From: Octopus vulgaris
Taxonomy: Eukaryota
Assembly (NCBI GenBank): GCA_951406725.2
Contig: OX597822.1
Location: 112,220,001 to 112,284,000, forward strand
Reading direction: 5' to 3'
Length of the DNA stretch: 64,000 bases
In this document: positions 28,931 through 31,325 of the stretch, in pieces
How positions within the stretch are numbered: position 1 is the first letter of the stretch
Layout: every line of letters starts with the position of its first letter
Position numbers and translations under genes: made by a program
Notes under the pieces: model-generated
Told to the model about the DNA's origin: nothing
Databases searched by the model: none
What the model saw: the letters and a program-made list of their open reading frames with translations, nothing else

Positions 28931-29455
28931 ATCATATGATGTACACTTTGTACAGTGAGAGAATTTCTTTTGGCATCAAGAAAATTGATGATTCTTGAAA
29001 ATTCTTCCATATTCTTTGCAACCTAATTATTTTGCTGCTGCTAGTACTAATTAGATGATTTGTTGGTAAATTAGGTCACTTGCTTGGAAACTAATTAGGT
29101 CATTTACTTGGTAAAACAATTACACTAAATAACATTTAGAGTCCTGTTTACCTCTGTATATATTACTAAATTACTTTGATGCGTTTATAAATTTCAAACT
29201 GTTTTCCAATTAGTAATTTGTATTTTACAGTTTTTCAACCACTAATTACTAGTTTTGAAATTGCACTACCACACTAGTAGGCTTTTATCCACTTGAATCT
29301 ATGCATTGGCTTTGATTTTTCTCTTTGAATGTCACTAAATTCATTGCGAATAACATAAATGTAATTTCACTTCCACTATAAAATGGAAGCCTTATCTTAA
29401 AAATCTTTTAATCCTTTATTAATAGAATACAGAGGTTATTGAGATGATAATAAAT

Positions 29456-29690
29456 GCGCCCTTTTAAAGCCTAGCCAGGCTCATGGGCCCGGTTTCTCGG
29501 TTTCTATGGTGTATATGTTCCCAAGCTGGACGGGACGCCAGTCCATCGCAGCGTTACTCATTTTTGCCAGCTGAGTGGACTGGAGCAATGTGAAATGAAG
29601 TGTTTTGCTCAGGAACACAATGCGTTGCCCGGTCCAGGAATCGAAACCACAATCTTACGATCATAGTGCTGACACCCTAACCAATAAGCC
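29456..29690 (-). mobile_element. tRNA-derived SINE, head B + tail Y
   Basis: Head and centre like 2524, tail like 28630. Confidence 0.85.
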
Positions 29691-29825
29691 AGCAGGATTC
29701 CTTTCTCATGTGGTACAATGCCAAGCCATTGGCAAGTTCTTTATAATTGTTAGACTTTATCTTAATTAAGGATAATACCAATGGTTTAAGTTGAAAATTA
29801 GCATTTTTGTTTTTGAATATTCCAG

Positions 29826-29907
29826 ACAGTCCTTGGGCACCATTTGACCATTGGCATCTTAAAAGTGAATATAAAAATATCCATAAACGAAAAGACTTAG
29901 CCAAAAG
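29826..29907 (+). CDS. ATG9: ATG9 coding exon 8
   Basis: (Y)SPWAPFDHWHLKSEYKNIHKRKDLAK resembles GPGSLFLNEWSLKAEYKRGGQRLELAQ. Splice sites tccag / gtgagt. Confidence 0.92.
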
Positions 29908-30013
29908 GTGAGTAGATAAAAAGATTGTTTCTATTACAGCTCTAAAGACTTTTCTTCTTCATCACCACCACCACCATCATTATTTTACATCTACTTTCTA
30001 TACTGGCATGGTC

Positions 30014-30239
30014 AGCATCAATGCTTCCTGTCAGCTTTGACACATTTCCTGTGTTTTTATGTGTACAAAGGGGAGACAAGCACCACCACCCAGCTAAGCC
30101 TACATCCAGAGACTAGTTTCTGAGTCTTGCTCGTCATCAGTCTGGTGTAGCATGGCCTGCTAGCTGAAGATACTTGTCTCCCCTTTGTAAACATAAGGAC
30201 ACACGAAATGTGTCAAAGCCGACAGGAAGCGTTGATGCT
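30014..30239 (-). mobile_element. 226-bp hairpin element with 67-bp inverted arms enclosing a hammerhead motif (probably Penelope-like-derived)
   Basis: Arms 30014-30080 and 30173-30239 are reverse complements with 6 mismatches. The HHR lies in the 92-bp spacer. Confidence 0.75.
30100..30151 (-). ncRNA. Minimal type I hammerhead ribozyme-like motif
   Basis: Minus strand reads gcuacaccaga-CUGAUGA-cgagcaagacuca-GAAA-cua-GUC/ucuggauguag. Helix I is ccaga:ucugg plus cuaca:uguag, helix II is GAG:CUC, and the helix III region is the palindrome ACUAGU. The helix II base pair is a C-A mismatch. Confidence 0.72.
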
Positions 30240-30437
30240 TCCTAGGGCTAAATAACGGTGGTGTGATTCCCTTTATGGGACTGTCACATTAAGTTGACAA
30301 TATACAACTGCTCTATCGTTCCACCACCGCTCATATCTCTCTGAGATATTTAGAAATTTAATATTTCTAATACAAATTATATGCTATAGATTTGCTGATG
30401 TTAAAAATGTTTTAATGTTGTTTTGATATCTTTTCAG

Positions 30438-30537
30438 ACTCAGTCGTCAGATCTTATGGATGGCCATTGGTAACTTTGTCCTATGTCCAATCATATTTGG
30501 ACTACAGATTATGTACACCTTTTTTAGATACACAGAG
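30438..30537 (+). CDS. ATG9: ATG9 coding exon 9
   Basis: RLSRQILWMAIGNFVLCPIIFGLQIMYTFFRYTE resembles RLSNRILWIGIANFLLCPLILIWQILYAFFSYAE. Donor gttcgt. Confidence 0.95.
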
Positions 30538-31325
30538 GTTCGTTCAATTCATTGCTATTTTATTGTTGTCGTTCTGTTCTCTACGAATCAGTTAAAGTTG
30601 AATCTCGCATCGTAATTATAGATTGTGATGAGATATGATCAAAACTGAAATGAGTGAGACCTTTAGTATATGTCTTGCAAACAACTTGCACATGCAAGTG
30701 CTACCAGTCAAAAACTCCGCATACCGGAAGCCAGCAAGCGTATGGGGTCATCAGGAGAGAATGCACGCTGTTTCGAAGCCTACCTCTCGACGTCATCAAT
30801 GCGCACCGGCCCCCCCTCACTGATATGAGGCCCCGCTTGCTAGATCAAATGGTTACTAAATATAGCTCAATATTCTTCTAGCCATCGCTCATCATCCCTT
30901 TGTAACCAAATCCAGTGGCTAGCCTTTTTCACTGTAGATTGGATATCAGTCATGGTGGTATTGACTTTATGATTAGTTAGCCCTAGCGATAACAACAGTC
31001 ATCTCACACTGTGTCCAATGAACCCTCTACATCCGACATCGATTGGAAAATGTTCTGCTTTCCAGCCTGCCTCTTCACATTCCTCTTTACCAAGTTGCCA
31101 TTACTTCCAGAGTTTATGAACAATATACTAAAAACATGTGATGGTCAATTCATTTATATACACCCCATTAAATTTGACCTGATATCTTAAAATATAGCAT
31201 TAGGGTTAATAATTAAATGCCAACTTTGAATTTACTTGGGGGAGTTTACGATATAAACAAAAGACGAAGACAGATGGTGTACAAAACAAACAGATGTATT
31301 AGTATAATGCTCAGGAATAGAAAAA

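What the first reader, a model, noticed from the sequence alone, without database searches (positions are those of the whole stretch)
30014..30239. Compact hairpin element with a hammerhead ribozyme at its apex, inside ATG9 intron 8
Seen: 67-bp inverted arms (6 mismatches, some at CpG sites) enclose a 92-bp spacer. On the minus strand the spacer has a complete type I hammerhead layout: helix I, CUGAUGA (30140-30134), helix II GAG/CUC, GAAA (30120-30117), palindromic ACUAGU and a GUC triplet, with a predicted cut between 30111 and 30110. Extra pairing (cagcta/tagctg) extends helix I toward the arms, so the whole 226 nt folds as one rod capped by the ribozyme. Known: minimal hammerheads with a palindromic, almost absent helix III occur in Penelope-like element terminal repeats and metazoan retrozymes, and cleave mainly as dimers. 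Inference: this is either a snapped-back PLE end or a distinct non-autonomous 'ribozyme-MITE' family. The C-A mismatch at the base of helix II may be a single CpG decay event. I see no TSD.
Basis: partly seen in the sequence, partly recalled or inferred. Interest (0 to 1): 0.78.

Follow-up and report, generated by a model that had tools for sequence, protein, structure and literature searches.

The report
Retrozyme family with Penelope-type insertions
The hairpin is one damaged, folded-back copy of an abundant 352-base repeat that carries a hammerhead motif predicted to cut its own RNA and was likely pasted around the genome by a Penelope-like retrotransposon enzyme, so it is a new member of a known kind of jumping element and not a new 'ribozyme-MITE'.

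Summary
The arms and the hammerhead layout are real, but the element is mis-bounded: it runs 30014-30369. It is a head-to-head pair of 5'-truncated copies of a ~352-nt tandem unit with a type I hammerhead (574 exact core matches; a sister family adds 891), which fits a non-LTR retrozyme. Copies end at two fixed points, about +175 and +230 from the predicted cut. 18 of 19 inverted pairs with two fixed ends carry one of each, and 9 of those 18 have 11-15 bp target duplications: the Penelope 'tail' signature. The hairpin forms only where the inversion joint falls in the ribozyme's own stem (8 of 40 top hits, several different joints). This copy has lost its left end and duplication. The C-A mismatch is the family state (1768 versus 17), not CpG decay. 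Helix III palindromes are kept across several sequence variants, which points to dimer cleavage. The motif is antisense to ATG9, and the intron is spliced out. No autonomous partner was found among five Penelope-like families; cleavage and circular RNA are untested. The scan noted similar Penelope-marked tandem units in other genomes.

The parts
30014..30369 (.). Whole insertion: head-to-head pair of 5'-truncated copies of the 352-nt unit
30014..30179 (-). Left arm: unit from about -69 to +97 around the predicted cut; holds the hammerhead; 3' part (to about +175) and TSD are missing; 153 of 166 identical to the subfamily consensus
30173..30369 (+). Right arm: unit from about +31 to the long fixed end (about +229); no hammerhead; 188 of 196 identical to consensus over 30173-30368
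30173..30179 (.). Inversion joint: 7 bases that fit both arms, inside the RNA stem that carries the ribozyme (read by eye from the match string; the script's own tie-break printed 1 base)
30105..30146 (-). Type I hammerhead: helix I (5 pairs here, 6 in the family), CUGAUGA 30140-30134, helix II GAG/CUC closed by C.A, GAAA 30120-30117, palindromic helix III, predicted cut 30111|30110
30310..30316 (+). Position of the short fixed 3' end of the family (about +175)
30317..30369 (+). 'Tail', about 53 bases between the two fixed 3' ends; closes with a 7-pair hairpin seen in the sequence
29960..30011 (+). Stub of a different, more diverged repeat (72-81% to other copies) cut off against the left arm; suggests a later deletion
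29906..30435 (+). ATG9 intron that holds the insertion (GT..AG)
29826..29905 (+). ATG9 exon upstream
30436..30537 (+). ATG9 exon downstream (Pfam ATG9 positions 232-265)

Best explanation
This is a damaged head-to-head insertion of a 352-nt tandem repeat with a hammerhead motif (a non-LTR retrozyme), likely copied into the intron by a borrowed Penelope-like reverse transcriptase. Shown: the unit, its tandem arrays, two fixed 3' ends, variable 5' ends, one-short-one-long inverted pairs, 11-15 bp duplications and AT-rich targets. Inferred: multimeric transcripts are cut by paired (dimeric) hammerheads and may be circularised; the enzyme nicks both target strands 11-15 bp apart and primes reverse transcription at two internal sites (about +175 and +230); the two cDNAs are joined at their truncated ends. 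Where the joint falls in the long stem that carries the ribozyme, complementary ends anneal and the copy becomes a hairpin with the ribozyme at its tip. This copy later lost its left end and duplication (inferred). It is antisense to ATG9 and is most likely inert.
For: 352-nt period; arrays with 3 cores at 355/354 nt and 2 cores at 350 nt and no ORF between. 110 of 134 segments in 88 loci end at +155-180 or +224-240; 37 of 48 in loci picked only by the core pattern. 18 of 19 pairs with two fixed ends are short+long, P 2e-5; either arm can be the longer (12 versus 6), which fits two primings better than simple snap-back. Direct repeats of 11-15 bp in 9 of 18 pairs versus 1 of 306 swapped controls. 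Flanks 77% AT versus 63%. A sister family, 219 of 367 columns identical, has the same length and ends at +173 and about +215-219. Two-site initiation explains the tail in a purified Penelope-like enzyme (PMC11167929). Helix I changes on both sides at 4 of 6 pairs between the two families; helix III stays palindromic in 27 of 30 and self-complementary in 25 of 30 loci.
Against: No autonomous partner with DNA similarity among five Penelope-like families examined. No cleavage test; one preprint found cleavage in only 1 of 9 tested retrozyme dimers. Within this family no covariation beyond shuffles (the outer helix was mis-registered there). Rfam gives no hammerhead match. The base of helix II is not the G10.1-C11.1 pair in its usual place. 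Single-arm copies show duplications in only 7 of 49 by the same test, at least two of them artefacts. 16 of 35 pairs have at least one end off the fixed sites. Loci are a small, partly score-biased sample.
Confidence: 0.85

Rival explanations
1. The unit is the pseudo-LTR of an autonomous Penelope-like element that I did not find, and this copy is an ordinary truncated, inverted end of it.
For: All end features are those of Penelope-like elements. Retrozymes are reported to be related to pLTRs. Searches score only the best candidates. Penelope protein fragments lie within 1.5 kb in 4 of 91 loci.
Against: Long copies run upstream into another lap of the unit, not into an ORF. The nearby fragment examined (L051) lies 265 bases off, behind a microsatellite, and belongs to a family with an unrelated terminal repeat; the other three were not dissected. 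The ribozyme has the 6/4/2 canonical shape, whereas the autonomous elements here carry other, minimal-type motifs.
Confidence: 0.1
2. The 226-nt hairpin is its own mobile family (ribozyme-MITE).
For: 8 of the 40 best hits, this copy included, are hairpins with the ribozyme at the apex; two of them share one joint.
Against: Joints differ between copies and 0 of 22 joints in loci L031-L120 are in register with the stem. The other hairpin copies extend to the family's fixed ends; the 30014 end was seen only here. No short MITE-type duplication.
Confidence: 0.02
3. The hairpin arose by snap-back of a single cDNA on itself at the ribozyme stem rather than by joining two primed cDNAs.
For: The joint lies exactly in register with the RNA stem and has replaced the stem's internal loop with perfect pairing.
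Against: In 6 of 18 intact pairs the short-ended arm reaches further 5' than the tailed arm, which one folded-back cDNA cannot give. Most joints have 0-3 shared bases, near chance. The variant shared by both arms here is common in the family (23 versus 41), so it does not prove one template.
Confidence: 0.2
4. The copy has been co-opted as a regulatory double-stranded RNA or ribozyme in ATG9.
For: A long inverted repeat would pair in the pre-mRNA as well and could be an A-to-I editing substrate (inference).
Against: The motif is antisense to ATG9; the copy is 4-8% diverged with private changes in helix I; it has no partner core nearby in the window; the intron is spliced out.
Confidence: 0.04

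Closest known systems
Metazoan non-LTR retrozymes (Cervera and de la Pena 2020, PMC7229834; Li, Clavereau and Pollet 2026 preprint 10.64898/2026.07.22.740005)
   Same: Non-coding tandem unit of 170-400 nt (mussel 350-390), one type I hammerhead per unit, GC-poor, strongly self-paired, monomers to multimers, duplications longer than 4 bp, co-occurs with Penelope-like elements. A U.U mismatch at the base of helix II is reported in one axolotl family.
   Different: Here the commonest state is C.A. The two fixed 3' ends and short+long inverted pairs are not described for retrozymes in the parts I read. No related pLTR found. Circular RNA and cleavage not shown. No cephalopod case in the main text.
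Penelope-like element insertions (Craig et al. 2021, PMC8557442; Frangieh et al. 2024, PMC11167929)
   Same: 5' truncation, partial tandems, adjacent inverted 5'-truncated copy, optional tail at one end, AT-rich targets, hammerhead upstream of the priming sites.
   Different: No ORF; tail about 55 nt rather than 30-40; unit closes on itself.
Canonical and minimal type I hammerheads of animals (Cervera and de la Pena 2014, PMC4209133)
   Same: Helix I 6 pairs, helix II 4 positions, helix III 1-2 pairs with a palindromic loop, expected to act as a dimer.
   Different: The base of helix II is a mismatch (or, read otherwise, G-C with an extra base on both sides). Not detected by Rfam models.

Membership tests
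Non-LTR retrozyme | Non-coding tandem unit of 150-450 nt with a type I hammerhead in each unit | tested here: met
   352-nt unit; arrays of 2-3 cores in this family, 9 in the sister family
Non-LTR retrozyme | Many dispersed copies, no LTR or ORF, highly self-paired unit | tested here: met
   574 exact cores, control 0; short stop-broken frames; z -8.0 for one unit
Non-LTR retrozyme | Target duplications longer than 4 bp when present | tested here: met
   11-15 bp in 9 of 18 intact pairs, 1 of 306 controls; absent at this copy
Non-LTR retrozyme | Self-cleavage and accumulation as linear and circular RNA | not testable with these tools
   Only assembled contigs were available; none on record as RNA
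Type I hammerhead | Conserved core CUGANGA / GAAA / UH with three helices | tested here: met
   Core exact in 64 of 74 motifs (partly selected by pattern); helix I of 5 or more pairs in 22 of 30 and 21 of 30 loci, not constrained by the patterns
Type I hammerhead | G10.1-C11.1 pair at the base of helix II | tested here: inconclusive
   Mismatch if helix II has 4 positions; met only if single extra bases flank a G-C pair. Y..A 1768 versus Y..G 17
Type I hammerhead | Match to Rfam hammerhead models | tested here: not met
   No hit at E up to 10 in 29500-30800; none at gathering score in 5 loci
Type I hammerhead | Palindromic helix III for dimer cleavage | tested here: met
   27 of 30 (pattern allowed 2 of 4 non-palindromes); sister set 15 of 30 strict, 25 of 30 with G.U, chance 6% and 14%
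Penelope-like element (autonomous) | RT plus GIY-YIG ORF between pLTRs | tested here: not met
   No ORF linked to the unit; no Penelope protein match in the window
Penelope-like element (autonomous) | Insertion signature: 5' truncation, inverted partner, tail from two priming sites | tested here: met
MITE | Copies share both terminal inverted ends and a short fixed duplication | tested here: not met

The most novel reading that the evidence does not exclude
This genome holds a clade of several undescribed 350-360 nt retrozyme families with a selected C.A-closed hammerhead that Rfam misses. Their ends record directly that retrozymes are inserted by two-site, two-strand Penelope priming, and since no Penelope element here shares sequence with them, the enzyme may recognise them by RNA shape alone. 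With young arrays and intact Penelope ORFs in the same genome, the open question of who mobilises retrozymes becomes testable in vitro.
Probability: 0.35. Interest if true: 0.6.

Novelty: new member of a known kind. Interest (0 to 1): 0.38.

Why it matters
The hairpin itself is a by-product. The family matters more: how animal retrozymes are mobilised is stated as open in the 2026 preprint, and here the ends carry the Penelope tail signature with statistics. The family also shows a hammerhead variant, kept in at least 1768 places, that current Rfam models miss, so ribozyme counts in such genomes are underestimates. No role in ATG9 is indicated.

Tried and rejected
Rfam scans: no hammerhead hit. 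Expression: no RNA holder listed on record; contigs cannot show ends, strand or circles, and the circular joint equals the tandem joint, so searches were used only for the splice joint and flanks. Empty site: none among the joints shown (15 of 28, 15 of 140); no conclusion. Partner search: a 781-aa family, a 574-aa fragment family, a 1008-aa family, a decayed Penelope-type family and a second decayed family gave no DNA similarity to the unit. A 40-nt hit in L088 was a third hammerhead repeat; a 55-nt hit in L210 lay outside the Penelope element. A 1008-aa element flanked by sister-family copies (L187) looked like a chimera but sits in TA runs, so I read it as nested insertion. Covariation: none above shuffles within the family, with the outer helix mis-registered; the cross-family MAFFT alignment was out of register and not used; pairs were read from parsed motifs instead. 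Shared arm variant as proof of one template: rejected. Three duplicate loci (L035, L092, L093) were dropped before the counts. The intron number was not determined. Earlier-findings search by sequence was blank.

Full report
Observation. The arms are as described: 67 bp, 6 mismatches, 2 at CpG sites, and the minus strand folds as a rod with z -19.4. The hammerhead boxes and the predicted cut at 30111|30110 are at the stated places. ATG9 exons lie on the + strand, so the motif is antisense to the gene. The intron is 29906-30435, and its spliced joint appears in four of five guessed-RNA runs. The intron number was not checked.

Boundaries. A search of the genome with the 226-mer gave 2913 candidates, 40 scored; 31 stop by query position 197, most at about 182. 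Their flanks share further sequence on both sides, and the same sequence continues in the window to 30369. The true unit is about 352 nt and repeats head to tail, with arrays of three cores at 355/354 nt and two at 350 nt and no ORF between. An exact core pattern occurs 574 times, reversed control 0. Two subfamily consensuses agree at 293 of 352 columns. One unit folds with z -8.0.

Ends. With the predicted cut as origin, 43 of 134 aligned segments in 88 loci end at +155-180 and 67 at +224-240; in loci picked by the core pattern alone, 20 and 17 of 48. The loci were picked for the long end and inflate that class. 5' ends are scattered. There are 35 head-to-head pairs; 19 have both ends at fixed sites and 18 of these are one short plus one long (P 2e-5). 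Nine of the 18 have 11-15 bp direct repeats outside, against 1 of 306 swapped flank pairs; single-arm copies show this in only 7 of 49. Flanks are 77% AT against 63%. Inverted truncated partners and a one-sided tail are described for Penelope-like elements (PMC8557442, passages), and a purified enzyme starts at two internal sites on either target strand, which makes the tail (PMC11167929, main text).

The hairpin. Of 35 joints, 32 share 0-3 bases, close to chance. Eight copies, this one included, have the joint in register with the long stem that carries the ribozyme, at several different points; all came from the hairpin query, and 0 of 22 joints in L031-L120 are of this kind by my reading. 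Here the joint is the 7 bases at 30173-30179, and the stem's internal loop has become perfectly paired. The right arm ends at the long site. The left arm stops near +97 against the stub of an unrelated, more diverged repeat; I infer a later deletion, which also explains the missing duplication. In 6 of 18 pairs the short-ended arm is the longer, which favours two primings and a join over snap-back of one cDNA.

The ribozyme. The shape is that of the canonical animal type I motif: helix I 6 pairs, helix II 4 positions, short palindromic helix III (PMC4209133, results and discussion). The C.A at the base of helix II is the family state: Y..A occurs 1768 times, Y..G 17 times across the related families; another subfamily has U.U, as reported for an axolotl retrozyme (PMC7229834, passages). 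A sister family gives 891 core matches, has a 352-nt unit with 219 of 367 columns identical, ends at +173 and about +215-219, and a nine-core array whose units differ by 0-4 bases. Between the families 4 of 6 helix I pairs change on both sides. Helix III loops are CUAG or CAUG here (27 of 30 palindromic) and CUCGAG, CUGCAG, CCCGGG or G.U variants there (25 of 30 self-complementary). This points to selection for dimer cleavage in the source elements. Against: no covariation above shuffles within the family, no Rfam match, no activity test, and only 1 of 9 frog retrozyme dimers cleaved in one study.

Partner. The genome has young intact Penelope-like elements with 781-aa and 1008-aa frames, a 574-aa fragment family and two decayed families. 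None shares DNA sequence with the unit. The searches score only the best candidates, so a rare partner is not excluded.

Comparison and novelty. The element meets the testable criteria of a non-LTR retrozyme (PMC7229834, passages and section 14; supplement unreadable) and inserts like a Penelope-like element without being an autonomous one. A 2026 preprint argues the same origin from phylogeny in vertebrates and leaves mobilisation open (introduction to discussion). Searches for hammerheads in octopus or cephalopods, for the helix II mismatch and for retrozyme end structure found no description of this family; a squid genome paper only counts 235 Rfam hammerhead matches (passages). A 2017 review was seen as passages. 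A 2017 paper on dimeric minimal hammerheads is recalled only. Most subscription journals and repeat databases were not searched, so the family may already be catalogued. Earlier notes of this scan describe similar Penelope-marked tandem units in other genomes; I did not test them.

Verdict. A new member of a known kind. The hairpin is a by-product of insertion; the family offers a clear end signature and an unusual but not unprecedented hammerhead. Interest 0.38.

Noticed in passing
L186 (G000:C2:14086528-14089376): Nine-core tandem array of a sister 352-nt hammerhead family, units differing by 0-4 bases; 891 exact core matches genome-wide.
   Followed up: partly
L088:613-987 (+ strand): A third, ~360-nt hammerhead repeat with its own long stem, sharing the 3'-end motif with this family.
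   Followed up: partly
L081-L087: Young Penelope-like family with intact 781-aa RT and GIY-YIG frame plus an upstream frame, bounded by TA microsatellites, with a minimal hammerhead whose first core base is U.
   Followed up: partly
L151-L155: Young Penelope-like family with a frame of up to about 1008 aa, 6164-bp tandem period, 98-100% identical copies, 3' end 99 nt after its hammerhead.
   Followed up: partly
L189-L218: Decayed Penelope-type family with a hammerhead in its terminal repeat and two 3' ends about 30 nt apart.
   Followed up: partly
G000:C1:9748864, 37155382, 71811767 and others: Further core variants with other loop 2 sequences, some 342 bp apart: probably more families of the same clade.
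   Followed up: no
unit position about -84 (L010, L012, L018, L033): A short TA run at the foot of the ribozyme stem often expands into a microsatellite, which can then receive TA-targeting elements (as read in L187 for the sister family).
   Followed up: partly
window 46948 from the minus-strand start; window 29440-29700 and 30670-31000: A hammerhead-like core on the minus strand resembling that of the 1008-aa family, and two very abundant unrelated repeats in neighbouring introns.
   Followed up: no
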